This document shows positions 5,878 to 20,998 of a stretch of DNA of 24,000 nucleotides, one piece after another (position 1 is the stretch's first letter; each line of letters starts with the position of its first letter). Where the stretch lies: contig JAKZRK010000280.1 in NCBI GenBank assembly GCA_047518225.1, positions 1 through 24,000 of the forward strand, read 5' to 3'. The notes under the pieces are model-generated. The model was not told the origin of the DNA, searched no databases, and saw only the letters and a program-made list of their open reading frames with translations. The stretch comes from Alphaproteobacteria bacterium. GTDB taxonomy: Bacteria > Pseudomonadota > Alphaproteobacteria > GCA-2731375. A program made the position numbers and the translations under genes.

Positions 5878-6142
5878 TTGAGCTTTCCCTGTTGATCCTC
5901 TGGCGTTGCATTCGCCTGCGCCAATATCGTTGTAATCGTGAACCGGCTTCCCGTTCACCGCGCCGACAGCAATTTCCATTCTGTCCTAACGGCCGGCGGC
6001 AGGCAACAGCCCGGCCCCGGTTTGGGTCCAATTAACTGTCCCTGCGACATTCCATGCCGGGGCCGATCTTGTTACAGTGCGGCGGGTCTGGGCACTTCAT
6101 AAACGCATGGATCAAATACTCGTGACTGGGAAGGGCGAACCG

Positions 6143-7381
6143 ATGTTTCAGGAACTAATAGCCCGCAGGGGCAGGCACCCGAATATCTCGTGGCGGGGGC
6201 GCTACGCCGATGCCTGCATCGAATTGCGCAGCGATGGGGACAGCCAGTTCCTCCACCTGGACGGGGACGGCATCCGGCTCGACGCCGCGAGGCCCGGGCG
6301 CCCCGTCACCCTGTGCCTGGATGCCAGCGCGGCGGACTGGCGCGAACTGCTGGGGGCGGCGCCCCGGCCCGGCCTGCAATCGCTGTCCGCCATGCGCCGC
6401 ACCGGCCATCTGCGCGTGTCCGGCGATCTGCTCGCCTATTATCAAAATCTGCTGGCCCTGGAATTGCTGTTTTCCCTTAGCCGCGCACGGCCTGAAAAAG
6501 CCCCGCCCGCAGCCGCCAAACCGCTGATCGAACCCATCGTGGGCCGTTACCTGAACCTGGACTTTCAGGGCCGGCCCCACCGCATCTATTTCGAGGAGGC
6601 GGGCCAGGGCATCCCCCTGATCTGCCTGCATACCGCGGGCTCCGATGGCCGCCAGTACCGGGAGATTTTGAACGATCCGGAGATCACCGCCAACTACCGC
6701 GTGGTGGTGTTCGACCTGCCCTGGCACGGCAAATCCTCGCCCCCCGCCGGTTTTCAGGACGAGGTCTATGAACTGACCACGGATGGCTACGTGGCCATGG
6801 TCATGGCGGTGAAGGCGGCGTTGGGCCTGGACAACCCCGTGGTCATGGGCTGTTCCATCGGCGGGCGGGCGGTGCTGCATCTGGCCCTGCGCCACGGCAA
6901 GGAGCTGCGCGCGGTGATCGGCCTGCAATCGGCGCTGTATGCGGAAAACAAGATCGATGGCGAGCCCGAGGGCATGCGCCCCATCCACCGCCCCGACGTC
7001 CATGGCCCGGAAATCTCGGGCGCACTGATGGTCGGCGTGATCGCGCCCCAGTCCCCCGCCGCCGATTGCTGGGAGACACTGTGGCATTACATGCAGGGCG
7101 GGCCGGGCGTCTTCATGGGCGATCTGAACTATTATTTCACCGACGGCGACATGCGCAACGGCATGGCGGGGGGCATCGATACCATCGCATGCCCGGTCTA
7201 TCTGCTGACCGGGGAATACGACACCTCGGCCACCCCGGAATTGAGCCGCCAGTTGGCCGAGGAAATCAACGCCACCGAATTCCAGGTGATGAAGGGCATG
7301 GGGCATTTCCCCATGTCGGAAAACCCCGACGCCTTTCGCGGCTACTTGCTGCCCATGCTGGAAAAAATCTCCGCCCTGTAA
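6143..7381 (+). CDS. Alpha/beta-fold hydrolase with an extra N-terminal domain of about 125 aa (SCP2-like?)
   Basis: The C-terminal approx. 280 aa contain a nucleophile elbow (GCSIGG), an LLTGEYD acid motif and a GMGHFPMSENP histidine motif. The N-terminal domain is of unknown function. I chose ATG 6143, preceded by GGGAAGGG, over GTG 6077. Confidence 0.8.
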   Translation: MFQELIARRGRHPNISWRGRYADACIELRSDGDSQFLHLDGDGIRLDAARPGRPVTLCLDASAADWRELLGAAPRPGLQSLSAMRRTGHLRVSGDLLAYYQNLLALELLFSLSRARPEKAPPAAAKPLIEPIVGRYLNLDFQGRPHRIYFEEAGQGIPLICLHTAGSDGRQYREILNDPEITANYRVVVFDLPWHGKSSPPAGFQDEVYELTTDGYVAMVMAVKAALGLDNPVVMGCSIGGRAVLHLALRHGKELRAVIGLQSALYAENKIDGEPEGMRPIHRPDVHGPEISGALMVGVIAPQSPAADCWETLWHYMQGGPGVFMGDLNYYFTDGDMRNGMAGGIDTIACPVYLLTGEYDTSATPELSRQLAEEINATEFQVMKGMGHFPMSENPDAFRGYLLPMLEKISAL

Positions 7382-7426
7382 GTATTTGTCCCCATAAATA
7401 CCCTCTACGCGCCGAGGAGTCAGCGA

Positions 7427-8671
7427 ATGACGGCGATTGAAGCAAGGGAATACTCGGCGGCCATGGATCAAGCCGACCCCCTGGCCGCTATCCGGGATAA
7501 ATTCGATCTGCCCGATGGGGTGATCTATCTGGACGGCAATTCCCTGGGCCCCCTGCCAAGGGGCGTGGCCGAGCGGCTTCAGGAGGTGGTGGCCCGGGAA
7601 TGGGGCCGGGATTTGATCCAATCGTGGAACCGCCATGGCTGGATCGATCTGGCGCAACGGGTCGGCGACCGCATCGCGCCCCTGATCGGGGCCGGGCCGG
7701 GCGAGGTAATAGTGGGCGATTCCACCTCCATCAATCTGTTCAAGCTGATGGCCGCCGCCCTGGAATTGCGCCCCGGACGCCGGGTGATCGTCAGCCAGGC
7801 GGGCAACTTCCCCACCGATCTTTACCTGGCCGAGGGGCTCATCCACCTCGCCGGGGCGGGGCATGAATTGCGCCTGGTGAAAGGCGACGATGTGCTGGGC
7901 GCCATTGATGAAAGCACCGCCCTGGTATCGCTGACCCAGGTCGATTACCGCAGCGGCCATGTCCAGGACCTGGCCGCCGTTACCGCCCGCGCCCACGACG
8001 CCGGTGCCCTGATGTTATGGGATCTATCCCATAGCGCCGGCGCCCTGGCCGTGGATTTGAATGAAGCGAAGGCCGATCTTGCCGTAGGTTGCAGCTATAA
8101 ATACTTGAACGGCGGACCCGGTGCGCCGGCCTATCTGTTCGTGGCCCGGCATCTGCAAGATCGGGTCCGCCAGCCCCTGTCGGGCTGGCTGGGCCATGCC
8201 GACCCCTTTGCCTTCGAACAGCATTACCGGCCCGCGCCGGGCATCCTGCGCCAGCAATGCGGCACCCCGTCCATTCTGGCCATGAGCGCCCTGGACGCCG
8301 CGCTGGCGGTTTTCGACGCCGTGGACATGGCCGCCGTACGGGCCAAATCCCTGGCCCTGACCGATCATTTCATACAATTGATGGAACGGCATTGCGGCGC
8401 CTTTGGCTTTACCCTGGCCACGCCAAGGGATCACGGCCGGCGCGGCAGCCAGGTTTCCTGGCAGCATGAAATGGGCTACCCCATCATGCAGGCCTTGATC
8501 GCCGAGGGCCTGATCGGCGACTTCCGCAGCCCGGATATCCTGCGGTTTGGCTTCGCGCCCCTGTACCTGCGGTTCGTGGATGTCTGGGATGCGGTCATGG
8601 TGATCGAACGGGTCATGGCGCAGCGCCGCTGGGACCGCCTGGAATTTCACCGACGCGCGGCGGTAACCTGA
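7427..8671 (+). CDS. kynU: Kynureninase
   Basis: The ORF contains YLDGNSLGP, the PLP-lysine region [14 protein letters not shown], and [11 protein letters not shown], and its length of 414 aa fits. GAGGAG lies upstream of the ATG. Confidence 0.93.
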
Positions 8672-8694: not shown

Positions 8695-9515
8695 ATGCCA
8701 ACATCGGGGGCCCATACGGATTTCACCAATGCCATGAGCTATGGCGATTACCTGCGGCTGGATGATCTGCTGGCGGCGCAACAGCCCCGCTCCGGCCAGC
8801 ATGACGAGATGTTGTTCATCATCATCCACCAAGCTTCGGAATTATGGATGAAACTAGTGCTGCACGAATTGCGCGCCGCCGTCGGGGAAATCCAAGCTGA
8901 CCAGCTGCGTCCGGCCTTCAAGATGCTGGCCCGGGTGTCGGGCATTCAGGAGCAGTTGATCCAGTCATGGGATGTGCTGTCCACCATGACGCCGGCGGAT
9001 TACCTGACTTTCCGCGATGCCTTGGGCCAGTCGTCGGGCTTTCAATCCCAGCAGTACCGCGGCATCGAATTCATGTTGGGCAACAAAAACGCCGAGATGC
9101 TGCGCCCCTTTGCCCATCGTCCTGATCTGCATGATCCTTTGCAGGCCATATTGGCGGCGCCCAGCCTGTATGACGTAAAACCCTGGCGCTATTGTCGAAA
9201 CGGGGCCTGGCGGTGCCCAAGAACCGCCTGAAACGGGATTGGCGGCAGCCCTATGTAGCCTCCGAGGGAGTGCAGGCGGTTTGGGGACAGGTCTATTCCG
9301 ATACCGCGCAATATTGGGATCTATATGAATTGGCCGAAAAACTGGTGGATCTGGAAGACCGGTTTCAGCAATGGCGTTTTCGCCATGTGACCACGGTTGA
9401 ACGCATCATCGGGCAAAAACGGGGCACGGGCGGCACCGAGGGTGTCGGATATTTGCGGAAAGCTTTGGAGATCCGGTTTTTTCCAGAGCTGTGGCAGGTG
9501 CGCACGGCGCTATAA
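8695..9515 (+). pseudogene. kynA: Tryptophan 2,3-dioxygenase split into two ORFs by a frameshift (8695..9231 and 9192..9515)
   Basis: The N-terminal part has [40 protein letters not shown] and APSLYD. The C-terminal part is in the -1 frame and has [31 protein letters not shown] and FFPELW. Together they are colinear with bacterial TDO as I recall the Xanthomonas enzyme. The frame switch must lie between TGA 9171-9173 (a stop in the downstream frame) and about 9185, at GTAAAACCC. Confidence 0.9.
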
Positions 9516-11170: not shown

Positions 11171-11912
11171 ATGACTGAACTGGTCCTGCGGGCGGACGCT
11201 GACGGGGTGGCGACGTTGACCCTGAACCGGCCGGAAGCGTTGAATGCCTTGAGCCCGGATTTGTTTGTCGAACTGCGCGGCCATGTGGAAAGCATCGCGC
11301 GCGAAGTGGACGATGTGGGCTGTGTGGTGTTGCGCGGCGCGGGGCGGTCTTTTTTGCGCCGGCAATGATTTGAAGTCGATCCAGGCCGGAGCGGAGGCGC
11401 CCTCCCCAACCTATCAGGCCGATACCATCGACATGATCGAAAACCTGCCCCAACCCGTGATCGCCGAGATCCGGGGCCATTGCTATACGGGCGGCCTGGA
11501 ACTGGCCCTGGCCTGCGATCTGCTGGTCGCCTCCACCACCGCCAAGTTTTCCGATACCCACGGCAAATGGGGCATGACGCCGCGCTGGGGCATGAGCCAG
11601 CGCCTGCCCCGGCGGATCGGGCCGCTGAAGGCCAAGGAAATGAGTTTTACCGCCCGCGCCTACAGCGGCGCCGAGGCGGCGGCCTTTGGCCTGGCCAACC
11701 AATGCGTGGAGGATGGCGAACTGGAAGCCGTGGTGAAAAAAATGGCGGCCGACATCGTGGGCAATTCCTGGCACTCCCTGCGCGGCAACAAGATGCTGTA
11801 TAACCGCGGCCAGGATTACACCTTTCACGACGGCCTGGCATTCGAGATGGCGGAAAGCCCCGGCCGCGGCCCCGATATCGAAGAGCGCCTGAAGGCTTTC
11901 GCCAAAAATTGA
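11171..11912 (+). pseudogene. Enoyl-CoA hydratase/isomerase family gene interrupted by a +1 frameshift in a T6 run
   Basis: The N-terminal part, MTELVLRADADGVATLTLNRPEALNAL...VVLRGAGRSF, ends at TGA 11366-11368. The rest, CAGNDLK...GHCYTGGLELALACD...FHDGLAFE, continues in the +1 frame to 11912. Removing one T from TCTTTTTTGC (T run 11350-11355) restores the canonical motif GAGRSFCAGNDL. Confidence 0.85.
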
Positions 11913-11923
11913 GGAAGACCGTC

Positions 11924-13336
11924 ATGTCCCAGCCGATCTGGCAATGGAGCGCCATGGATACCGCCGCTGGCATCCGAGCCGGTAAAATCACGGCCCAGGA
12001 AGCCGTCGATGCCGCCATTCAGCGCATGGCGGATACCAACGCGACCGTCAACGCAGTGACCGTTGATCTGTCCGAGGAGGCCATGGCGGCCGCCAGGGAG
12101 GCCGATGGCGTTGTCGAAAGCGGCGTGGCCCTGGGGCCGCTGCACGGCGTGCCTGTCACCATCAAGGAAAATGTCGATCAGGTGGGGCAGGCCACCACCA
12201 ACGGCGTGCCCGGCTATGCCGATGTGGTGGCGAAAGAGGACTCGCCCGTGGTCGCCAATCTGCGCCGGGCCGGCGCCATCGTCATCGGGCGCACCAATAC
12301 GCCGGAATTCAGCCTGCGCTGGTTCACCGACAATCCCCTGCGCGGCCTAACCAGGAACCCCTGGAACCACGGCGTTACCCCCGGCGGCTCGTCAGGCGGC
12401 GCGGCGGCGGCTTGTGCGCTTGGCATGGGCGCCATCGCCCACGGCAACGATCTGGGCGGATCCCTACGCTATCCCGCCTATGCCTGTGGTCTGGCCACGA
12501 TCCGCCCCTCTCTGGGACGGGTGCCCGCCTATAACCCGACAGCCGCCGAAGAACGGCCGCCGATCCTGCAATTGATGTCCGTGCAGGGGCCCATTGCGCG
12601 GGAAGTCCGCGATGTGCGCCTGGCCCTGGGAGCCATGGCGCAACATGATGCCCGCGACCCCTGGTGGGTGCCCGCGCCCCTAGACGGCCCCCGCCTGGAT
12701 CCCCCGATCAAGGTGGCGGTGACCAAGACGCCCGCCGGCATCGCCTGTCATGGGGCGGTGGCCACGGCGATAGATCAGGCCGCCGGCCACCTTGCCGATG
12801 CCGGCTATGCGGTGGCGGCGGTGAACCCGCCCCTGGTGGCGGAGATCGCTGAAAACTGGCGCACCTTGCTGATGACGGACACCAAGGTGATGATGGAAGC
12901 CAGTATCCGCGAACATGGTTCCCGGGATATCAATCAGGTCATCGATGACTATCTGGCCGCCTCCAACCCCCGCGACGGCGAGGGCTATATTCGCGCCCTG
13001 GCCGACCGCACCCGTCTGTTGCGGGCCTGGAGCGTGTTCATGGAGGATTATCCCCTGGTACTGGCCCCGGTCAGCCAGGTACCCCCCTTCCCGCAAGGAG
13101 AAGACCTGAAAGGCACGGCGCGGGTCAGGCAGATGCTGGACGAACAAAGTATGCTGTATGGTGTGAACGCTTTGGGCCTGCCCGCCGCCGCCGTCCCCAC
13201 AGGATTGCACGATGGCCTGCCCATGGGGGTGCAAATCATCGGCCCGCGTCTGCGGGAAGATCTATGCCTGGACGCGGCCGAGGCGGTGGAGCGCGCCACG
13301 GGCATCCTGGCGCAACAACTATGGAGCCGGACATGA
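11924..13336 (+). CDS. Amidase-signature (AS) family amidase
   Basis: The ORF has GPLHGVPVTIKENVD (catalytic Lys region), GGSSGGAAAA and the Gly/Ser-rich AS signature. ATG 11924 is preceded by GAGGAAG. Confidence 0.9.
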   Translation: MSQPIWQWSAMDTAAGIRAGKITAQEAVDAAIQRMADTNATVNAVTVDLSEEAMAAAREADGVVESGVALGPLHGVPVTIKENVDQVGQATTNGVPGYADVVAKEDSPVVANLRRAGAIVIGRTNTPEFSLRWFTDNPLRGLTRNPWNHGVTPGGSSGGAAAACALGMGAIAHGNDLGGSLRYPAYACGLATIRPSLGRVPAYNPTAAEERPPILQLMSVQGPIAREVRDVRLALGAMAQHDARDPWWVPAPLDGPRLDPPIKVAVTKTPAGIACHGAVATAIDQAAGHLADAGYAVAAVNPPLVAEIAENWRTLLMTDTKVMMEASIREHGSRDINQVIDDYLAASNPRDGEGYIRALADRTRLLRAWSVFMEDYPLVLAPVSQVPPFPQGEDLKGTARVRQMLDEQSMLYGVNALGLPAAAVPTGLHDGLPMGVQIIGPRLREDLCLDAAEAVERATGILAQQLWSRT

Positions 13337-13842
13337 GTACTGGATGGCCGGAAGAAATATACGGCCTGCTGCGTGAGAATGGCATCGACCAGATGGCCTA
13401 TGTGCCCGACGCGGGCCACGACCATCTGATCAAACGCTCGATCGCGGACCCCGAGGTGCATGCCATCGCCCTGACCACCGAGGAGGAAGGCGTCGGCCTG
13501 CTGGCGGGCGCCCATTTGGGCGGCGGCCGCGGCGTGTTGCTGATGCAAAGCAGCGGCGTGGGCAACTGCATCAACCTCTTGTCCCTGATCAGGGCGGGAC
13601 GTTTTCCCTTCCTGACCCTGATCTCCATGCGCGGCGATTTCGGCGAGGGCAACCCCTGGCAAATTCCCATGGGGCAATCGACCCAGCCGGTGCTGGAAGC
13701 CTGTGATGTGACCTGTCTGCGGATCGACGATCCGGCGGAGGTTACCTCCACCATCGGCGCGGCCATTACCATGGCCTTTCAAAACGAAATGCCGATCGCT
13801 GTCCTACTGGGGCAGAAGTTGATCGGCGCCAAGATATTTTAG
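13333..13842 (+). CDS. ThDP-dependent decarboxylase, alpha (PYR-domain) subunit; sulfopyruvate/phosphonopyruvate decarboxylase-like (ComD-like)
   Basis: The 169-aa protein has VPDAGHDHL, TTEEEGVGLLAGAHLGG, LLMQSSGVGNCINLL and ISMRGDFGE, matching the N-terminal pyrimidine-binding half of ComD/Ppd-type enzymes. The ATG overlaps the amidase stop (ATGA, 13333-13336). Confidence 0.8.
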   Translation: MSTGWPEEIYGLLRENGIDQMAYVPDAGHDHLIKRSIADPEVHAIALTTEEEGVGLLAGAHLGGGRGVLLMQSSGVGNCINLLSLIRAGRFPFLTLISMRGDFGEGNPWQIPMGQSTQPVLEACDVTCLRIDDPAEVTSTIGAAITMAFQNEMPIAVLLGQKLIGAKIF

Positions 13843-13851
13843 AGGTGAAGT

Positions 13852-14475
13852 TTGGCAAATCCGAATGAAGGCGGCCGTGCGGCCGGCAAGACGGCGACCG
13901 GGCATCTGGACCGGCGCGCCGCGGTCAAGACCCTGTTGGATATGCAAGGCGATGTCCTGATCGTGGCCGGCCTGGCCGGGGCCAAGGGTGACGTGGTGGC
14001 GGCCGTGGGCGACGACCCGCGGGTTTTCGGCTTTGCCGGGGCCATGGGCGCGGCGGCGTCCATGGGCCTGGGCCTGGCCCTGGCGCAGCCCGACAAACGG
14101 GTCATCGTGGTCACGGGCGATGGCGAATTGCTCATGAACGTGGGAACCCTGGCCACCATCGCGGTGGCTAATCCGGCCAATCTGGGCATTATTTGCGTCG
14201 ATAACGAGCATTACGGCGAGACCGGCTTTCAACGCAGCCACACGGGCCTGGGAACGGATCTTGCGACCATGGCCCAGGGCGGCGGCATCGGCGCGGTGCG
14301 CACGGTGCGCGAGACGGCCGAACTGGAGGATGCGGGCGAGATGCTGCGCAACAGCAACGGCGCCGCCTTTGTCCTCTTGAAGGTCGCCGTGGACGATCCA
14401 CCCAAGATCAGGACCTCCTGGGATGCGGCCTTTCACAAAAACCGTTTCCGACAGGCCCTGCTGGGACATCCATGA
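13852..14475 (+). CDS. ThDP-dependent decarboxylase, beta (PP-domain) subunit; ComE-like
   Basis: The ThDP-binding motif GDGELLMNVGTLATIAVANPANLGIICVDNEHYG (GDG...N) is present. A TTG start at 13852 is inferred from AGAGGTGAAG just upstream and from conserved sequence that begins before the first in-frame ATG. Confidence 0.78.
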   Translation: MANPNEGGRAAGKTATGHLDRRAAVKTLLDMQGDVLIVAGLAGAKGDVVAAVGDDPRVFGFAGAMGAAASMGLGLALAQPDKRVIVVTGDGELLMNVGTLATIAVANPANLGIICVDNEHYGETGFQRSHTGLGTDLATMAQGGGIGAVRTVRETAELEDAGEMLRNSNGAAFVLLKVAVDDPPKIRTSWDAAFHKNRFRQALLGHP

Positions 14476-15695
14476 CCGCAGGGTTTCCGCCAAAACCTAA
14501 ACTGGCGGCCCGCATGAGCCGTTTCCAACCTTCCGCCTCCCAGGCGGCGGCGCAACAGGCGCGGGATCTGGCGGCGGCGGGCCGGGACATTATTTCCCTG
14601 ACCGCCGGAGAGCCGGACTTCCCCACGCCCGATCACGTCAAGCGGGCGGCCATGGCCGCCATGGGCCGGGAGGAGACGAAATATACCAACCGCGACGGCA
14701 GCCCGGAGATGAAGGCGGCGGTGATCGAAAAATTTCGCCGCGACAATGACCTGGACTATCGACCCGATCAGATCATCGCCTCGACCGGGGCCAAACAGGT
14801 CATCTTCAATGCCCTGATGGCCACGGTGGAAAGTGGCGGCGAGGTTATCGTGCCCGCGCCCCATTGGCTGTCCTATCCGGACATGGTGCGGCTGGTGGGC
14901 GGCGAAGCCGTCATCGTCCCCTGCCCGGCGGAGCGGCAATTCAAACTGCAACCCAGTGACCTGGAGGCCGCCATCACGCCCGCCACGCGCTGGTTGATCT
15001 TCAATGCGCCGGGCAATCCCGCCGGCGCGGTCTATAGCGCCGGCGAGATTGGTGACCTGGCGGATGTGCTGATCCGCCGCCCCTGGGTCGGCATCATCAG
15101 CGACGATATCTACGAGCATCTGCGCTATGACGGCCTGCCCTTCGTCACCTTGGCCCAACATTCCGACGATCTTCATGACCGCACCCTGTGCGTCAATGGT
15201 GTTTCAAAAGCCTATGCCATGACCGGCTGGCGCCTGGGCTATGGCGCGGGGCCAGCCAACTTGATTAAGGCCATGGCCGATGTGCAGGGCCAGTCCACGG
15301 CCTGTCCATCTTCCATCTCTCAGGCCGCCGCAATCGCGGCCCTGACGGGCGGGCAGGAACTATTGGCGGAACGGGCTGCCATCATGCAGGCACGGCGCGA
15401 CCTGATTTGCGGTTTGCTCAACGATTGTCCGGGCCTGCGCTGCCACCCACCGGGCGGGGCGATGTATATTTTCTGCTCCTGCGCCGGTCTGATCGGGGCC
15501 CGGACCCCGGACGTCGGGCGCATCGAAAGCGACGGCGATTTTACCGCCTATTTGCTTGCCGCCGGCGTCGCCGTGGTGCCCGGCGCCGCCTATGGCCTGT
15601 CGCCCTATATTCGGATTTCCTTTGCCCTGCCCGAAGCCGAATTGACCGCCGCCGCCGCCCGCATTCGCGCCGCCTGTGAAAACCTCAAAGTGTGA
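14472..15695 (+). CDS. Class I/II PLP-dependent aminotransferase (aspartate aminotransferase-like)
   Basis: The ORF has LTAGEPDFPTP, NAPGNPAG and the PLP-lysine motif NGVSKAYAMTGWRLGY. The ATG overlaps the upstream stop (ATGA, 14472-14475). Confidence 0.9.
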   Translation: MTAGFPPKPKLAARMSRFQPSASQAAAQQARDLAAAGRDIISLTAGEPDFPTPDHVKRAAMAAMGREETKYTNRDGSPEMKAAVIEKFRRDNDLDYRPDQIIASTGAKQVIFNALMATVESGGEVIVPAPHWLSYPDMVRLVGGEAVIVPCPAERQFKLQPSDLEAAITPATRWLIFNAPGNPAGAVYSAGEIGDLADVLIRRPWVGIISDDIYEHLRYDGLPFVTLAQHSDDLHDRTLCVNGVSKAYAMTGWRLGYGAGPANLIKAMADVQGQSTACPSSISQAAAIAALTGGQELLAERAAIMQARRDLICGLLNDCPGLRCHPPGGAMYIFCSCAGLIGARTPDVGRIESDGDFTAYLLAAGVAVVPGAAYGLSPYIRISFALPEAELTAAAARIRAACENLKV

Positions 15696-15704
15696 GCGTT
15701 TAAG

Positions 15705-17792
15705 ATGAGCCGTTACGCCCTGGGCATCGATATCGGCGGCACCTTCACCGATGTGGTCTTGTATGACCGCGAGGGGGGCCGGCGCCTGAGCCGCAAGATA
15801 TTGACCACGCCCGGTGATCCGGCGGCGGCCGTGCTGGATGCGGTGGACCGGGTGCTACACGATGAAGCCATTGCCCCCGGCGACATTGAACGGGTGGTGC
15901 ATGCCACGACCCTGTTCACCAACGCCCTTATAGAACGCAAAGGCGCCAAAACCGCGCTTTTGACCACGGAGGGTTTCCGCGACAGTTTGGAGATCGGGCG
16001 GGAGCGGAAGTACGACCTGTATGATCTGGCGGCGAAAAAGCCCCGCCCCCTGGTCCCCCGGGAACTGCGTTTCGAGGTTGGCGAGCGCATTCTGGCGGAC
16101 GGCAGTGTCTATCGGGCCTTGGAGACCGACGCCCTGACGGAAATCGCCGAGGCGCTAACATTGGCCAAGGTTACCTCGCTCGCCATCGTCTTCCTGCATG
16201 CCTACCGCAATGATGATCACGAACAGGCCGCCGGTGCGCGCATGGCTGAACTGCTGCCCGATCTGGCGATCAGCCTGTCCAGCGATGTGGCCCCGGAAAT
16301 CCGGGAGTTCGAGCGGGCCTCGACCACCGCCGCCAATGCCTATGTGAAACCCCTGGCGCGGGATTATCTGGGTGCCTTGAGCAGCCAATTAAGGACCCGG
16401 AATATCGCCGCCCCATTGTTGTTGATGCTGTCCAGCGGCGGTTTGACCCATGTGGGCGAGGTGCGCCGCTCGCCGGTGCAAATGCTGGAATCCGGTCCCG
16501 CCGCCGGCGCCCTGGCCGCCGCCGATATTGGCCGGGCCGAGGGGTTGGGCCATGTCCTGGCCTTCGACATGGGCGGCACGACCGCCAAGCTGTGCCTGAT
16601 TGATGGAGATGAGCCGGCCATCGCCTATCGCTTCGAGGCGGCGCGGGAACGCCGCTTTGCCGAGGGCAGCGGCCTGCCCATCCGCATCTCCACCGTGGAA
16701 TTGCTCGAGATTGGCGCCGGCGGCGGTTCCATCGCCCGCCTGGACAGCCTGGGCCTGTTAAAAGCCGGACCGGACAGCGCCGGCGCCGTGCCCGGACCCG
16801 TGGCCTATGGCCGGGGCGGCGCCGCGCCCACGGTAACCGATGCGGATTTCGCCCTCGGTTATCTGGCAGCGGAGGGTTTTGCCGGCGGCGCCATTGACGT
16901 AGACCTGCCCGCCTGTCACACGGCAATCGAGGCACTTGCGGATCGGGCCGGCCTGTCATGGGAAAAACTGGCCTGGGGCATTCATGATCTGGTGAACGAG
17001 AACATGGCCTCGGCCGCCCGCGTGCATATCGCCGAAAAGGGCCGCGACCCGCGCAACTACACCCTGGTCGCCACGGGGGGTGCGGGGCCCGTGCATGCCT
17101 ATTATCTGGCCGGCAAGTTGGGCATCAAACGCATCGTCTGTCCCCGCAATGCAGGTGTTGCCTCGGCCTTTGGTTTGCTGCTGGCGCCGGCGCGCGTCGA
17201 CCGCACCGCCGCCTTTGCCGCCCCCCTGGACAGCTTGGATTGGCCGGCCCTGGAAACCGCCTATGGGGAATTGGAAGCCGCCGCCCGCCAGGTCATCGCC
17301 GACACCGGGGCGGATGCAGGCGGCGCCCAGGTACGGCGGCTGGCCGATATGCGCAATATTGGCCAGGGCTTTGAGCTGGTGGTGACGCTGCCCCCCGGTC
17401 CTTACACCCCCGCCAGCCACGATGGCTTGTTGGCGGCCTATGCCCAGGCTTATCAGGTTCAATTCACCCGGCCGCCGCCGAATGTTCCCGTCGCCGTCGC
17501 CGCTATCCGGGTACGCCTGACGGCCAAGGGAGACGCGGCCGTCGATGATCTGGCCCAGGGCCCGGACCGCCCCCCGGCGGAGAAGCGCCGGCGCCAGGTC
17601 TATTTCCCCGAAACCGACGGCGCCGTGGCGACCGCGATCCATGACCGTGCCGCCATGAGGGCCGGGGAAACATTCACCGGCCCCGCCGTGGTCGAGGAGC
17701 CTGAATCCACCATGGTCATCGGACCCGGTGGCCGCTTTCACCTTTCCGCCGGCGGCAACCTGATCATCGACCTGCCCGAGGATACGCCATGA
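15705..17792 (+). CDS. hyuA: Hydantoinase/oxoprolinase family protein, A subunit (ATP-dependent cyclic-amide hydrolase/carboxylase family)
   Basis: The 695-aa protein has the N-terminal ALGIDIGGTFTDVVLYD and a second actin-like ATPase motif, AFDMGGTTAKL. Confidence 0.9.
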   Translation: MSRYALGIDIGGTFTDVVLYDREGGRRLSRKILTTPGDPAAAVLDAVDRVLHDEAIAPGDIERVVHATTLFTNALIERKGAKTALLTTEGFRDSLEIGRERKYDLYDLAAKKPRPLVPRELRFEVGERILADGSVYRALETDALTEIAEALTLAKVTSLAIVFLHAYRNDDHEQAAGARMAELLPDLAISLSSDVAPEIREFERASTTAANAYVKPLARDYLGALSSQLRTRNIAAPLLLMLSSGGLTHVGEVRRSPVQMLESGPAAGALAAADIGRAEGLGHVLAFDMGGTTAKLCLIDGDEPAIAYRFEAARERRFAEGSGLPIRISTVELLEIGAGGGSIARLDSLGLLKAGPDSAGAVPGPVAYGRGGAAPTVTDADFALGYLAAEGFAGGAIDVDLPACHTAIEALADRAGLSWEKLAWGIHDLVNENMASAARVHIAEKGRDPRNYTLVATGGAGPVHAYYLAGKLGIKRIVCPRNAGVASAFGLLLAPARVDRTAAFAAPLDSLDWPALETAYGELEAAARQVIADTGADAGGAQVRRLADMRNIGQGFELVVTLPPGPYTPASHDGLLAAYAQAYQVQFTRPPPNVPVAVAAIRVRLTAKGDAAVDDLAQGPDRPPAEKRRRQVYFPETDGAVATAIHDRAAMRAGETFTGPAVVEEPESTMVIGPGGRFHLSAGGNLIIDLPEDTP

Positions 17793-19405
17793 GTTCTTTC
17801 GATGCCGTGACCCTGGAAGTGATCTGGAACCGCATGATCGCCAGCGTGGACGAGGCGGCCAAGGCCATCGTCCGCACCTCGTTTTCCACCCTGTCCAACG
17901 AGGCCAATGATTTCGCCTGCGTTCTGACCGATGGGTCCGGCCAGTTGCTGGCCCAGAACAGCGGCTCCATCCCCTCCTTCATCGGCACCCTGCCCGCCAC
18001 CGTGCGCCACACCCTGGAGCGTTTCGGGCACGATGGTTTGCACCCCGGCGATGTCATCTGCACCAACGATCCCTGGCTGGGCACCGGGCATCTGAACGAT
18101 TGCAGCATCGTGCGCCCCATTTTCCGCCAGGGGCGCCTGATCGCCTTTGCCGCCACCGCATCGCATATGCCCGATATCGGCGGCCGCATCCGATCCGTCA
18201 AGGCGCGGGAAATCTTCGAGGAAGGCTTTCATATTCCCCTGTTGAAGATCTTACGCGCCGGGGAGCCGGACCAGACATTCTTTGAATTATTGCGTACCCA
18301 GGTCCGCACTCCGGACCAGACCGAAGGCGATATCCACGCCCAGATCACCGCCAACTACCTGATCGAAGACCGGGTGCTGGCCATTCTGGGGGAATATGGT
18401 CTGGACGATCTGGTTGAACTATCGCGGGAATTGAACGGCCGCACGGAAGCCGCCATGCGCGCGGCCCTGGCGGAGGTCCCCGACGGCATCTATCCCTACC
18501 AAATGCTGACCGACGGGCTGCGCGCCGATGCGCCCTTTACCTTTGCCCTGAGCCTGACCATCAAGGGCGATACGGCGCATTTCGATTTCGCCGGCACCTC
18601 GCCCGTGCAGCCCAGGGCGATCAACTGCCCCTTCTGCTACACCTACGCCATGTCCGCCTATGCCATTAAATGCGCCCTGTTGCCCGATGTGCCCAACAAT
18701 TCCGGCATGTTGCGGCCCATAGAGGTGACGGCGCCCGAGAACAGCCTGTTAAACCCCCTGCCCCCGGCGTCCGTGGGCGCGCGGGCCAGCACCGGCCATT
18801 ATGTTCCCATCTTGGCCTTCGGCGCCCTGGCCGGGGTATTGCCGGACCGGGTCATGGCGGCGGCCGGCTCGCCCCTGTGGAATTGCACCCAGTCAGGGGT
18901 GCGGCCCGATGGCCAGCCCTATGCCACAAATCTGTTTTTCAACGGCGGCATGGGCGCGACCGCCGCTTCGGATGGGGAGCATGCCATCTCGTGGCCGTCC
19001 AATCTGTCGTCCACGCCGGTTGAGGTCGCGGAACAATCGGCTCCCCTGTTGTTTCATTACAAGCGCCTGCGCCCCAATTCGGGCGGTGCGGGGCAATATC
19101 GCGGCGGCCTGGGCCAGGATATGTTGATCGAAAGCCTGTCCGAGAGCCCCATCGCCGTGACCTTCATGGCGGAACGCACCCGATACGGCGCGCCGGGTTT
19201 GGCGGGCGGCGGGATGGGCGAAGTCGGCGCCGTGCAGATCAACGGTTCGGAGGCGGATAACCGGGCCCAGCATCATTTGCAAACGGGCGACCGCATATTG
19301 ATCGCCACGCCGGGCGGGGGCGGCTATGGTTCCCCAAAGGCCCGCGGCGTGGAGGACGCCGCCAGGGACCGCCGGCAAGGCTATGTGAGGGAGGATGTCG
19401 AATGA
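17789..19405 (+). CDS. hyuB: Hydantoinase B/oxoprolinase family protein, B subunit
   Basis: The 538-aa protein has DAVTLEVIWNRMIASVDEAAKAIVRTSFS, NDFACVLTD and the C-terminal PGGGGYGSP, all typical of HyuB. It shares an ATGA overlap with hyuA (17789-17792). Confidence 0.9.
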   Translation: MSSFDAVTLEVIWNRMIASVDEAAKAIVRTSFSTLSNEANDFACVLTDGSGQLLAQNSGSIPSFIGTLPATVRHTLERFGHDGLHPGDVICTNDPWLGTGHLNDCSIVRPIFRQGRLIAFAATASHMPDIGGRIRSVKAREIFEEGFHIPLLKILRAGEPDQTFFELLRTQVRTPDQTEGDIHAQITANYLIEDRVLAILGEYGLDDLVELSRELNGRTEAAMRAALAEVPDGIYPYQMLTDGLRADAPFTFALSLTIKGDTAHFDFAGTSPVQPRAINCPFCYTYAMSAYAIKCALLPDVPNNSGMLRPIEVTAPENSLLNPLPPASVGARASTGHYVPILAFGALAGVLPDRVMAAAGSPLWNCTQSGVRPDGQPYATNLFFNGGMGATAASDGEHAISWPSNLSSTPVEVAEQSAPLLFHYKRLRPNSGGAGQYRGGLGQDMLIESLSESPIAVTFMAERTRYGAPGLAGGGMGEVGAVQINGSEADNRAQHHLQTGDRILIATPGGGGYGSPKARGVEDAARDRRQGYVREDVE

Positions 19406-19599
19406 GCAGCAATAACGTGGACGAGGCGGCCCTGGCACAACTGGCCCGGCATTTGGGATTAGAGAAGCTGTATGAGGCGCAGCCGGAGTTGGTGCGCCAA
19501 GCCTACGACGGCGGCCGCGCCATGGCCCGGCGCCTGCAACGGCCCGACGATATCGCCGACGAACCGGCCCATGTTTTCCGGGCCGACAACAATGTCTGA
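19402..19599 (+). CDS. Small 65-aa protein, AtzG-like/GatC-like candidate partner of the downstream amidase
   Basis: A strong SD, GGAGG (19390-19394), lies 7 nt before ATG 19402. The ATG overlaps the hyuB stop (ATGA), and the ORF's 3' end overlaps the amidase ATG by 8 nt. The protein is acidic and helical, and its C-terminal DEPAHVFRA resembles my recollection of the DUF4089/AtzG-like small proteins found next to AtzE-type amidases. Confidence 0.6.
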   Translation: MSSNNVDEAALAQLARHLGLEKLYEAQPELVRQAYDGGRAMARRLQRPDDIADEPAHVFRADNNV

Positions 19600-20998
19600 A
19601 AAGATTAAGGACCTGGCGTTTTTGAGCCTGACGGAGGCCGCGGCGCGGATCCGCACCGGCGAGCTATCGCCCGTCACCTACGCGCAATGCCTGCTGGACC
19701 GTATCGGCGCCCATGACCACTCGTTCGACAGCTTCCTCCGCGTTCTGACCGAAAGCGTCCTGCAGGAGGCGGCGGCGGCGGAGCGCGCGGTAAAGGCCGG
19801 CGAGACTTTAGGGCCCTTGCATGGCGTGCCCTTTGGCCTGAAAGACATTATCGATGCCGCCGGTCTGCCGACCACGGCGCATTCACAAATCCTGGCTCAG
19901 CAGCCGCCCAAGACCGGTGATGCCGCCGTGACCAAACGCCTGCGCGCGGCAGGGGGGATATTGCTGGGCAAGTTGGCGACCCACGAATTCGCCCTGGGCG
20001 GGCCATCCTTCGATCTGCCCTGGCCGCCGGCCCGCAACCCGTGGAACCGGCAGCGTTTTCCGGGCGGCTCTTCGTCCGGCTCCGGCGTGGCGGTGGCGGC
20101 GGGGTTCCTGCCCATGGCGCTCGGCACGGACACCGGCGGCTCCGTCCGCAACCCGGCGACGGCCTGCGGCATCGTCGGCATGAAGGCGACCTATGGCCGG
20201 GTCAGCCGCCAGGGCGTGGTGCCCTTGTCCTATTCCCTGGATCACGTGGGACCCATGACCCGGACGGTAGGCGACAATGCCCTGATGTTGAACGCCCTGG
20301 CCGGCCACGATCCCGCCGATCCGGCCTCGGCCGATGTGCCGGTCCCTGACTACACGGCCCAGCTTGAGCAAGGCGTCAAGGGCCTGCGCATAGGCGTCAT
20401 CCGCCATTTCCATAATCGTGACACGATCGCCGACCCGGTGGTGGCGGACGCCATCGAAGACGCGTTGGGGGTCTTGCAGGAACTGGGCGCCGAGGTGGCC
20501 GAGATCGAGACCGAACCCCTGGTCACCTACGCCACCTGTAACCGGGTGATCCTGCTGTCGGAAGCCTATGCCATCCATCGCCATTGGCTCGCCGAACGGC
20601 CTGGTGAGTACAGCGCGTCGTTCCTGGAACGGATCCTGCCCGGCGCTTTTCTGACGGCGGATGACTATGTGGATGCCTTGCGCCTGCGCCGGCGATTGAC
20701 CGCTGGTTTCAACCAGACCATCCGGGACCTGGACGGGGTCATTGTTGCCTCCTCCATGGACCCACCGTTTGTCATTGACGACGCGGCGGAGATTGCCCTG
20801 AAATATACCCGTCAGGCCCGTGCGCCCTTCAACCTGACCGGCAACCCGGCCCTGTCCCTGCCCATCGGTTTCGATGGCGACGGCCTGCCCCTGGCCATGC
20901 AGATCGTGGCCGGGAATTTTCAAGAGGCCATGATCTATCGTATCGCCGCCGCCTACGAGGCCGCCACGACATGGCATGACCGCCGCCCTCCCCTATAA
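19592..20998 (+). CDS. Amidase-signature family amidase (GatA/AtzE-like)
   Basis: The ORF has GPLHGVPFGLKDIID and GGSSSGSGVAVAAGFLPMALGTDTGGSVRNPATACGIVGMKATYGRVSR, the full AS signature with the Ser-cisSer-Lys triad context. I preferred ATG 19592 (MSEKIKDL...). An in-frame ATG at 19571 is also possible. Confidence 0.9.
   Translation: MSEKIKDLAFLSLTEAAARIRTGELSPVTYAQCLLDRIGAHDHSFDSFLRVLTESVLQEAAAAERAVKAGETLGPLHGVPFGLKDIIDAAGLPTTAHSQILAQQPPKTGDAAVTKRLRAAGGILLGKLATHEFALGGPSFDLPWPPARNPWNRQRFPGGSSSGSGVAVAAGFLPMALGTDTGGSVRNPATACGIVGMKATYGRVSRQGVVPLSYSLDHVGPMTRTVGDNALMLNALAGHDPADPASADVPVPDYTAQLEQGVKGLRIGVIRHFHNRDTIADPVVADAIEDALGVLQELGAEVAEIETEPLVTYATCNRVILLSEAYAIHRHWLAERPGEYSASFLERILPGAFLTADDYVDALRLRRRLTAGFNQTIRDLDGVIVASSMDPPFVIDDAAEIALKYTRQARAPFNLTGNPALSLPIGFDGDGLPLAMQIVAGNFQEAMIYRIAAAYEAATTWHDRRPPL

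What the first reader, a model, noticed from the sequence alone, without database searches (positions are those of the whole stretch)
19402..20998. GatC/GatA-like (AtzG/AtzE-like) small-subunit plus amidase pair coupled to HyuB, outside a cyanuric-acid context
Seen in sequence: a 65-codon ORF has a strong GGAGG SD. Its ATG overlaps the hyuB stop, and its 3' end overlaps the start of an amidase-signature amidase by 8 nt. This is classic stoichiometric coupling.

Established knowledge: in Pseudomonas sp. ADP the amidase AtzE (1-carboxybiuret hydrolase) needs the approx. 68-aa protein AtzG. The AtzEG complex is structurally a vestige of GatA/GatC from the GatCAB tRNA amidotransferase.

Inference: this ORF is the equivalent obligate partner, judged from its size, position and C-terminal DEPAHVF-type motif. 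No AtzD, AtzH or AtzF-like genes are nearby, and the pair sits directly behind hydantoinase A/B, so it probably acts on a different carboxylated or carbamoylated amide. Automated annotation would easily miss the small ORF. The other amidase in the operon (11924-13336) has no such partner.
Basis: partly seen in the sequence, partly recalled or inferred. Interest (0 to 1): 0.65.

Follow-up and report, generated by a model that had tools for sequence, protein, structure and literature searches.

The report
Small partner gene of an amidase
A conserved 65-codon gene overlapping the start of an amidase gene most likely encodes a small non-catalytic helper subunit distantly related to AtzG and GatC, so this is a new example of a known two-part enzyme design, not a new kind of system.

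Summary
A 65-codon ORF (19402-19599) has a GGAGG Shine-Dalgarno site. It overlaps the hyuB stop (ATGA) and overlaps the amidase start (19592) by 8 nt.

It is a real gene. dN/dS is 0.08-0.26 among orthologues, and it belongs to a family of at least 55 clusters of 58-77 aa proteins ending in DEPAHVF.

No Pfam or NCBIfam model recognises it, including PF13318 (AtzG-like) and GatC. Profile-profile comparison links the family to AtzG-like proteins over its full length (44-84% probability; score 25.6 against 8.8±1.8 for shuffles) and more weakly to GatC.

Across the family, the only constant neighbour is an amidase from one clade:
- 10 of 10 and 25 of 29 loci have the small ORF directly upstream, mostly with 4-nt overlaps.
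- 18 of 19 amidases found without reference to the small ORF have one.
- Natural amidase-small-domain fusions are common (97% HHalign match).

That amidase clade groups with GatA and AtzE. The HyuAB linkage is specific to this lineage.

Most likely this is an AtzG-type partner subunit of an amidase whose substrate is unknown. Binding and obligate dependence are untested.

This scan has noted the same kind of pair on other DNA about 170 times.

The parts
19390..19394 (+). GGAGG Shine-Dalgarno site, 7 nt upstream of the small ORF's ATG
   Evidence: Read directly from the sequence.
19402..19599 (+). 65-codon gene for the small DEPAHVF-family protein, the putative non-catalytic amidase subunit (P0001)
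   Evidence: Translation. Homologues. dN/dS 0.08-0.26. HHalign to AtzG-like proteins. AF2 monomer: helices 8-17, 21-26 and 28-44, then an extended tail.
19592..19599 (+). 8-nt overlap ATGTCTGA: the amidase start codon lies inside the end of the small ORF (translational coupling)
   Evidence: The same junction occurs in L002 and L008-L010. Across the family, 17 of 26 junctions overlap (15 by 4 nt, one each by 8 and 19 nt).
19592..20998 (+). Amidase-signature amidase, 468 aa (P0002), with a Lys84/Ser160/Ser184 triad. It belongs to a clade sister to GatA and AtzE.
   Evidence: PF01425, 344 bits. NCBIfam best matches are gatA, PRK06169 and the AtzE family, all below their cut-offs. Best PDB matches are GatA, then AtzE. 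Tree. Motifs.
17789..19405 (+). hyuB (hydantoinase B/oxoprolinase family). Its stop overlaps the small ORF start (ATGA). This is context specific to this lineage.
   Evidence: PF02538, 503 bits. Orthologous loci. Not found next to the module in 39 other loci.
15705..17792 (+). hyuA (hydantoinase A/oxoprolinase family), operon context
   Evidence: PF01968 and PF05378. Best NCBIfam match is caprolactamase alpha, below its cut-off.

Best explanation
The 65-codon ORF is a real gene for a small, non-catalytic protein. Its family (about 58-77 aa, consensus L..LA...GLE.L....P......A...A.....R..RP....DEPAHVF) has no curated model. The family is a distant relative of AtzG (Pfam PF13318) and, more distantly, of the N-terminal half of GatC.

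The small protein is translated in step with the downstream Ser-cisSer-Lys amidase through the 8-nt overlap. It most likely binds that amidase stoichiometrically, using its N-terminal helical module and extended C-terminal tail. Its likely role is to stabilise or assemble the enzyme, as AtzG does for AtzE and GatC does for GatA.

The amidase belongs to a clade that is a sister of GatA and AtzE. Its substrate is unknown. In this operon it probably hydrolyses an amide made downstream of the HyuAB-type ring-opening step.

Shown here:
- The gene is real.
- The adjacency and translational coupling are conserved.
- Fusions of the domain to such amidases exist.
- Remote profile similarity to AtzG-like proteins exists.
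- The amidase is close to GatA and AtzE.

Inferred, not shown:
- Physical binding.
- Dependence of the amidase on the small protein for solubility or activity.
- Stoichiometry.
- Substrate.
For: **1. It is a real gene.** dN/dS is 0.08-0.26. There are 17 close clusters and 55 clusters at 50% identity.

**2. The amidase is the only constant neighbour.**
- In 10 of 10 diverse genome loci the ORF sits directly upstream of a P0002-like amidase, in otherwise unrelated contexts.
- In 401 Alphaproteobacteria genomes, 25 carry the family.
- In 25 of 29 loci from that search the ORF abuts the amidase start.
- 17 of 26 junctions overlap, and 24 of 26 lie within 8 nt of each other.

**3. The converse holds.** Amidases were collected without reference to the small ORF. 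Of those scoring at least 400 bits to P0002, 18 of 19 have a recognisable small ORF upstream. Six more have one by inspection.

**4. Fusions exist.** Many metagenome and genome proteins of 540-551 aa are an amidase plus a C-terminal domain. That domain matches the small-ORF family at 97% HHalign probability, E 3e-11. The fusion clade nests inside the clade of small-ORF-linked amidases.

**5. The fused domain appears docked in a structure prediction.** AF2 of one fusion gave pLDDT 93 and pTM 0.93. The linker has no secondary structure yet scores pLDDT 81-92. The two helices of the domain score 94-96.

**6. Remote homology to AtzG-like proteins and GatC.**
- HHalign to 13 PF13318 members: 44% (P 2.3e-4, 53 colinear columns), 77% and 84%.
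- Column-shuffle null: 8.8±1.8, maximum 13.5, against 25.6 observed.
- One family member hits PF13318 directly at 3e-5.
- To GatC: 10-44%.

**7. The amidase is closest to GatA and AtzE.** This holds by sequence, by fold for the fusion relative and in the tree.

**8. AtzG biology is established.** AtzG is non-catalytic, forms an obligate complex with AtzE, and AtzE is insoluble without it (PMC6219798).
Against: - No Pfam or NCBIfam model matches P0001, even at permissive thresholds.
- Profile searches of the PDB never retrieved AtzG (6C62 chain B). GatC (2df4_C) appeared only at E=0.9, among noise.
- Foldseek with the monomer model found nothing.
- HHalign probabilities are moderate. The highest (84%) used a profile that includes four sequences I picked because they looked intermediate.
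- No complex model of the window's own pair could be made.
- In the fusion model the most conserved motif, DEPANVF, has pLDDT of only about 60. How and where it binds is therefore unknown.
- Three of 29 amidase loci show no partner.
- Solubility dependence is assumed by analogy with AtzE.
Confidence: 0.75

Rival explanations
1. The small protein does bind the amidase but is not homologous to AtzG or GatC. It would be an independently evolved helper whose helix-helix-tail shape and EPAxVF-like ending are convergent.
For: - No direct Pfam hit.
- AtzG was never retrieved from the PDB.
- Foldseek found nothing.
- HHalign probabilities are only 44-84%.
- AtzG-like versus GatC profiles show no detectable similarity, so the method is near its limit.
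Against: - The HHalign match is colinear over the full length and about 9 SD above shuffles.
- One family member hits PF13318 at 3e-5.
- Intermediate small ORFs with VEPAVVF or EPAPVFRP tails sit in front of related amidases.
- The three partner-bearing amidase groups cluster together.
Confidence: 0.15
2. The small protein is an adaptor that tethers the amidase to HyuAB, as GatC bridges GatA and GatB. This would channel a labile ring-opened intermediate from HyuB to the amidase.
For: - The ATGA overlap with hyuB is conserved in two of the three orthologue groups; the third has a 3-nt gap.
- The conserved tail is left unplaced in the single-chain fusion model, as if it binds something else.
Against: - HyuA and HyuB are not adjacent in any of the 10 + 29 other loci of the family.
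- Neighbours there vary: PAS-LuxR, methyltransferase, APH, luciferase-like, SDR, TctC.
- The only universal neighbour is the amidase. At most this would be an added, lineage-specific role.
Confidence: 0.06
3. The ORF matters only as a translated leader that delivers ribosomes to the amidase start, which lacks a Shine-Dalgarno site. Alternatively, it encodes an inhibitor or immunity-type protein for the amidase. In either case it is not a structural subunit.
For: - The amidase ATG has no obvious Shine-Dalgarno site and lies inside the small ORF.
- Tight overlaps are the rule across the family.
Against: - The amino-acid sequence is under purifying selection.
- The motif is conserved across proteins of only 30-40% identity.
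- The domain is permanently fused to active-site-intact amidases in many organisms, which does not fit a leader or an inhibitor.
- The context is metabolic, not a toxin-immunity locus.
Confidence: 0.04

Closest known systems
AtzG-AtzE, 1-carboxybiuret hydrolase of Pseudomonas sp. ADP (PDB 6C62/6C6G; Pfam PF13318 AtzG-like; PMC6219798)
   Same: - A protein of about 65 aa is encoded directly upstream of a GatA-like amidase-signature amidase and is translationally coupled to it.
- Both small proteins have a helical N-terminal part and an extended tail ending in an EPAxVF-type motif (EPAPVF in AtzG-like proteins, DEPAHVF here).
- Remote profile similarity exists.
- The amidase is among the nearest relatives of AtzE.
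   Different: - The small protein does not match PF13318.
- The two families occur at separate loci in the same genomes.
- The amidase is below the AtzE-family cut-offs (286-300 bits against 426-461) and forms its own clade.
- No atzH, atzD or atzF is nearby.
- The operon context is HyuAB, a PuuE-like hydrolase and aminotransferases.
- Substrate, binding and obligate dependence are not shown here.
GatC-GatA within the GatCAB tRNA-dependent amidotransferase (e.g. PDB 2DF4, 3H0L, 4WJ3)
   Same: - GatA is the best solved-structure match of the amidase (240 bits; Foldseek E 1e-40 for the fusion relative).
- GatC is likewise a small subunit encoded just upstream of gatA.
- There is weak colinear profile similarity to GatC residues 3-52.
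   Different: - The genome has its own gatC-gatA elsewhere (contig C281).
- The small protein lacks the roughly 40-residue C-terminal half of GatC.
- No GatB-like partner is nearby.
- The amidase scores 321 bits against the gatA cut-off of 481.
- The context is catabolic, not tRNA metabolism.
Natural amidase/small-domain fusion proteins (540-551 aa) found here in metagenomes and genomes (L096, L098-L132)
   Same: - The amidase part is 40-50% identical to P0002 and lies in the same clade.
- The C-terminal domain matches the small-ORF family at 97% HHalign probability.
   Different: - One polypeptide, with the small domain after the amidase instead of a separate gene before it.
- Uncharacterised, with no literature found.

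Membership tests
AtzG-like (Pfam PF13318, formerly DUF4089) | Matches the Pfam model at or above its 24-bit gathering score | tested here: not met
   No hit for P0001 at E<=10. PF13318 finds nothing in the window's genome at E<=1. It does find 18 of 301 genomes of the same class. Only 1 of 55 family members hits it, at 3e-5.
AtzG-like (Pfam PF13318, formerly DUF4089) | Remote (profile-profile) homology to family members over the full length | tested here: inconclusive
   HHalign probabilities are 44% (P 2.3e-4), 77% (P 2e-5) and 84% (P 7e-6), with 53-55 colinear columns. The observed score of 25.6 compares with 8.8±1.8 for 150 column shuffles. This is suggestive but below the usual 90-95% level.
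AtzG-like (Pfam PF13318, formerly DUF4089) | Small (about 60-75 aa) protein encoded immediately upstream of a GatA/AtzE-type amidase and coupled to it | tested here: met
   8-nt overlap in the window. The same arrangement occurs in 10 of 10 and 25 of 29 family loci.
AtzG-like (Pfam PF13318, formerly DUF4089) | Forms an obligate complex with its amidase; the amidase is insoluble alone (PMC6219798) | not testable with these tools
   No multimer prediction was available. The only indirect evidence is the fusion proteins.
AtzE family amidohydrolase (TIGR02715 / NF006631) | The amidase scores above the curated family cut-off | tested here: not met
   286 and 300 bits against cut-offs of 426 and 461. 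It forms a separate clade, 99% SH-aLRT, from the AtzG-linked amidases.
atzG-atzE-atzH cluster (PMC6219798) | An AtzH (DUF3225/NTF2-like) gene next to the pair | tested here: not met
   Pfam scans of all larger ORFs in the window show no such domain. The downstream gene is a PuuE-like polysaccharide deacetylase-fold protein.
GatC (Pfam PF02686) / GatCAB | Matches the GatC model, and the partner is the gatA equivalog with a GatB present | tested here: not met
   No GatC hit for P0001. The genome's real gatC is on contig C281. The amidase scores 321 bits against the gatA cut-off of 481. HHalign to GatC gives only 0.7-44%.
GatC/AtzG-type fold (two N-terminal helices followed by an extended tail that lies on the amidase) | Predicted structure superposes on GatC or AtzG and occupies the same site on the amidase | tested here: inconclusive
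   The AF2 monomer has helices 8-17, 21-26 and 28-44 (pLDDT >90) and an extended tail 45-65 (pLDDT about 60). This agrees in outline, but Foldseek against the PDB found nothing. No coordinates or complex model could be compared.
Amidase signature family (Pfam PF01425), for the 19592-20998 gene | Pfam match above the cut-off and an intact Lys/cis-Ser/Ser catalytic triad | tested here: met
   344 bits against a cut-off of 27. GLKD (K84), GGSSSGS (S160) and TDTGGS (S184) are present and invariant in the family alignment.

The most novel reading that the evidence does not exclude
A GatC-derived 'belt' subunit may be the ancestral and still general feature of a whole superclade of amidase-signature enzymes. 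That superclade would include GatA, AtzE, the clade found here and further clades. The belt would exist as several sequence families that databases cannot see, and would have been fused to the enzyme more than once. If so, thousands of proteins annotated simply as 'amidase' or 'GatA' would be hetero-oligomers that misfold when expressed alone. The invariant DEPAHVF tail, which a single-chain model leaves unplaced, would have its own role, for example clamping the second protomer or gating the active site.
Probability: 0.4. Interest if true: 0.55.

Novelty: new member of a known kind. Interest (0 to 1): 0.38.

Why it matters
**For enzymology.** If the small protein is needed for folding or assembly, as AtzG is for AtzE, anyone expressing this widespread clade of 'amidases' alone may obtain insoluble or inactive protein. 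More than 7,900 relatives at E<=1e-60 were seen in one capped search. Pathway reconstructions would also miss a subunit.

**For annotation.** The small family has no Pfam or NCBIfam model, so it is labelled 'hypothetical protein' or left unlabelled. The alignments built here, together with the natural fusions, would support a new model and a link to the AtzG/GatC superfamily.

**For evolution.** The work adds a third partner-bearing sister group beside GatA and AtzE. It also shows a plausible series: small gene upstream, small gene downstream, then fusion.

It does not reveal a new mechanism. The substrate of this amidase and the pathway of the surrounding operon remain unknown.

Tried and rejected
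- **Direct family scans.** Pfam at E<=0.1 and E<=10, and NCBIfam, gave nothing for P0001.
- **PDB sequence searches.** Searches with P0001, A1 and A11 returned only noise: designed helical repeats. GatC 2df4_C appeared at E=0.9 and AtzG was never listed.
- **Modelling the window's own pair as one chain.** I read the overlap with a four-letter codon (AACA=N) to join the two genes. I did not pursue it further.
- **Alignment A6.** MAFFT placed the distant small proteins inside the amidase region, so I discarded it.
- **The search for related loci with A3 and A4.** Both failed for lack of a conserved 7-column stretch. A subset with an invariant DEPAHVF (A5) worked.
- **Foldseek of the 65-aa monomer model against the PDB.** No meaningful hit. 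This is uninformative for so short a helical protein.
- **HHalign to GatC.** Comparing the family (A3), or the AtzG-like proteins (A2), with GatC (A9) gave nothing. A link to GatC appears only weakly with broadened profiles.
- **First shuffle script.** It timed out and was rerun.
- **Longer amidase start at 19472.** Considered and rejected on homologue lengths and gene calls.
- **HyuAB as a general partner of the module.** Rejected, since it appears in 0 of 39 other loci.
- **The primary AtzEG paper (PMC5961051).** It is not held in the library. Statements about AtzG rest on PMC6219798.
Full report
**What is in the sequence**

- An ORF of 65 codons runs from ATG 19402 to TGA 19597-19599.
- GGAGG lies at 19390-19394, 7 nt upstream of the ATG.
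- The ATG shares ATGA with the stop of hyuB (17789-19405; PF02538, 503 bits).
- The amidase ATG at 19592 lies inside the end of the small ORF, so ATGTCTGA is shared, an 8-nt overlap.
- A longer in-frame ORF from 19472 exists. The homologous amidases are 463-472 aa, begin at the same residues, and are called from the overlapping ATG in orthologous loci.
- The amidase (P0002, 468 aa) is a typical amidase-signature enzyme: PF01425, 344 bits, with K84, S160 and S184 in the GLKD, GGSSSGS and TDTGGS motifs.

**Is the small ORF a gene?**

Yes.
- It has 17 homologous protein clusters at 65-100% identity. Several are already called 'hypothetical protein' in public MAGs, so annotation does not always miss it.
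- The C-terminal RPDDIADEPSHIFRADNNV is nearly invariant.
- Between the window and three orthologue groups, dN/dS is 0.08-0.26 with dS of about 1 or more. This excludes the overlapped ends.
- A profile search of 1.8 billion representatives found 55 clusters of mostly 58-77 aa proteins. Their consensus is L..LA...GLE.L....P......A...A.....R..RP....DEPAHVF.

**Direct family tests are negative**

- Pfam and NCBIfam give nothing for the small protein, even at E<=10.
- PF13318, now named AtzG-like, finds nothing in the window's genome at E<=1. The same model finds 18 of 301 genomes of the class.
- The genome's true gatC is on another contig.
- PDB sequence searches give only noise.

**Remote homology**

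I extracted 13 AtzG-like proteins (A2) and 17 GatC proteins (A9) from genomes of the same class.
- The family profile A3 aligns with A2 over 53 colinear columns at 44% probability, P 2.3e-4, score 25.6. In 150 column shuffles of A2 the score was 8.8±1.8, with a maximum of 13.5.
- One family member hits PF13318 directly at 3e-5. It is probably P0067, which is the top hit of my own AtzG-like HMM.
- Adding the fused domains described below raises the match to 77% (P 2e-5). It also gives a weak colinear match to GatC residues 3-51: 10%, score 19.8 against a null of 9.6±2.2.
- A further broadened profile, A11, gives 84% to AtzG-like proteins and 44% to GatC. That profile contains four sequences I chose by eye as intermediates, so those figures lean towards the hypothesis.
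- AtzG-like versus GatC profiles show nothing. The AtzG-GatC relation was established structurally in the literature, and sequence methods are near their limit here.
- Shared features are a helix carrying A..GL, a second long helix, and a tail with E-P-A-x-V-F (EPAPVF in AtzG-like proteins, DEPAHVF here).
- I rate homology to the AtzG/GatC group as probable, not proven.

**Structure prediction**

- AF2 of the small protein alone (41-sequence alignment) gives helices 8-17, 21-26 and 28-44 at pLDDT above 90, and an extended tail 45-65 at about 60. This is what one expects of a protein whose tail needs a partner.
- Foldseek found nothing with this model, which is uninformative for so short a chain.
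I dropped it.

**Genomic association**

- In nine orthologous loci the whole operon is conserved. It contains kynureninase, often TDO, ECH, amidase A, a split ThDP enzyme, HyuA, HyuB, the small ORF, the amidase, a PuuE-like hydrolase, a class-V aminotransferase and a methyltransferase.
- In ten more distant loci (small protein 37-45% identical), the small ORF is always directly upstream of a P0002-like amidase (430-640 bits). HyuAB is not adjacent. The neighbours are unrelated: PAS-LuxR, methyltransferase, APH, PhoX, luciferase-like, SDR and TctC.
- In 401 sampled Alphaproteobacteria, 25 genomes carry the family, some two or three times.
- Of 29 loci from that search:
  - 25 have the ORF abutting the amidase start.
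  - One has it just downstream of an amidase.
  - Three are fusions.
  - One is a false hit.
- In 26 junctions, 15 are 4-nt overlaps, and 24 lie within 8 nt.
- I also collected amidases without reference to the small ORF:
  - 18 of 19 scoring at least 400 bits to P0002 have a recognisable small ORF upstream.
  - Among 10 weaker ones, two are recognised by profile.
  - Six more have an upstream small ORF with a VEPAVVF or EPAPVFRP tail by inspection.
  - Three of 29 have none.
- The conserved unit is therefore small ORF plus amidase. The HyuB coupling belongs to this lineage's operon only.

**Fusions**

- One genome (L096) encodes an amidase with the small-protein domain at its C-terminus.
- A metagenome scan found at least 30 such proteins of 540-551 aa at 51-62% identity over the whole length. 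This is a real architecture, not an assembly error.
- Their C-terminal domains match the small-ORF family at 97% HHalign probability, E 3e-11.
- In two genomes, a divergent amidase carries the domain at its C-terminus and is followed by a P0002-type amidase.
- AF2 of one fusion (L110) gives pLDDT 93 and pTM 0.93. The linker 461-484 has no secondary structure yet scores pLDDT 81-92. The two helices of the domain score 94-96. This suggests that the linker and domain lie on the amidase.
- The DEPANVF tail stays at about 60, so where it binds is open. pTM is dominated by the large amidase domain. I could not inspect contacts, so this is supportive, not decisive.

**The amidase**

- Its best solved relatives are GatA (237-241 bits for the top two) and AtzE (216 bits), ahead of peptide amidase.
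- NCBIfam ranks gatA, PRK06169 and the AtzE family first, all below their cut-offs.
- The fusion relative's fold matches GatA first, then AtzE.
- In a quick ML tree of 67 amidases:
  - The small-ORF-linked and fusion amidases form one clade (99% SH-aLRT).
  - Fusions nest inside that clade.
  - The one locus with the reversed gene order is their sister.
  - This clade, GatA (100%) and the AtzG-linked amidases (100%) join together, apart from the other amidases, with weak support (80%).
  - Only six 'other' amidases were sampled, and the root is set on one long branch. The superclade is therefore tentative.
- The window's second amidase (11924-13336) is a PRK07487-subfamily enzyme, has no small ORF, and lies outside the clade.

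**Comparison with what is known**

- AtzG is a non-catalytic protein that forms an obligate heterotetramer with AtzE. AtzE is insoluble without it, and the pair is thought to derive from GatCA. atzG-atzE-atzH clusters are already known to be widespread outside cyanuric-acid operons (PMC6219798).
- I found no paper describing this DEPAHVF family or GatC-like partners of other amidases.
- This scan has recorded the same kind of pair on other DNA about 170 times. That includes reports of fused modules.

**Verdict**

- This is a new, uncurated family-level member of the known GatC/AtzG-type small-subunit design, attached to its own amidase clade.
- Binding, necessity and substrate remain to be tested.

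Noticed in passing
L096; L098-L132; L063:9966-11594 (-); L067:10006-11634 (-): A widespread family of 540-551 aa proteins consists of a P0002-like amidase plus a C-terminal domain homologous to the small ORF (97% HHalign). It looks like a Rosetta-stone fusion, with the gene order reversed relative to the split form.
   Followed up: yes
L082:102-1662 (+) and L083 (- strand): A divergent amidase (about 140 bits to P0002) carries the small-protein domain at its own C-terminus and is followed immediately by a P0002-type amidase. This hints at hetero-amidase assemblies.
   Followed up: partly
window 8695-9231 (+): The tryptophan 2,3-dioxygenase ORF is only 178 aa, against 272-276 aa in orthologous loci. 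It is probably a frameshift or an assembly error.
   Followed up: partly
window 6077-8671 versus L002-L010: The orthologous loci have a 403-407 aa Fe-S (reductive-dehalogenase-like) gene between the alpha/beta hydrolase and kynureninase. The window has none there. The window alone has an AspC-like aminotransferase (14472-15695) between the ThDP subunit and hyuA.
   Followed up: no
window 11265-11912 (+): The first operon gene (enoyl-CoA hydratase) matches only profile positions 49-220 from a TTG start.
   Followed up: no
L208 (G000:C270:17000-20400), ORFs 768-1247 and 1266-2399: A second P0002-like amidase in the same genome (309 bits, 41% identity) is split by a stop or frameshift. It has no recognisable small partner ORF, so it may be a pseudogene.
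   Followed up: partly
L198, L199, L202-L205 (upstream of the amidase starts): More distant relatives of the amidase (300-385 bits) are preceded by small ORFs that my profiles miss. These ORFs end in VEPAVVF, EPAPVFRP or similar. They look like a continuum of partner families between the DEPAHVF family and AtzG-like proteins.
   Followed up: partly
window 13264-14475 (+): A split ThDP enzyme sits inside the amidase operon. Its beta subunit gives sulfopyruvate or phosphonopyruvate decarboxylase-like hits below their cut-offs. It is preceded by an ORF of about 170-190 aa with no Pfam hit. Its function here is unknown.
   Followed up: no
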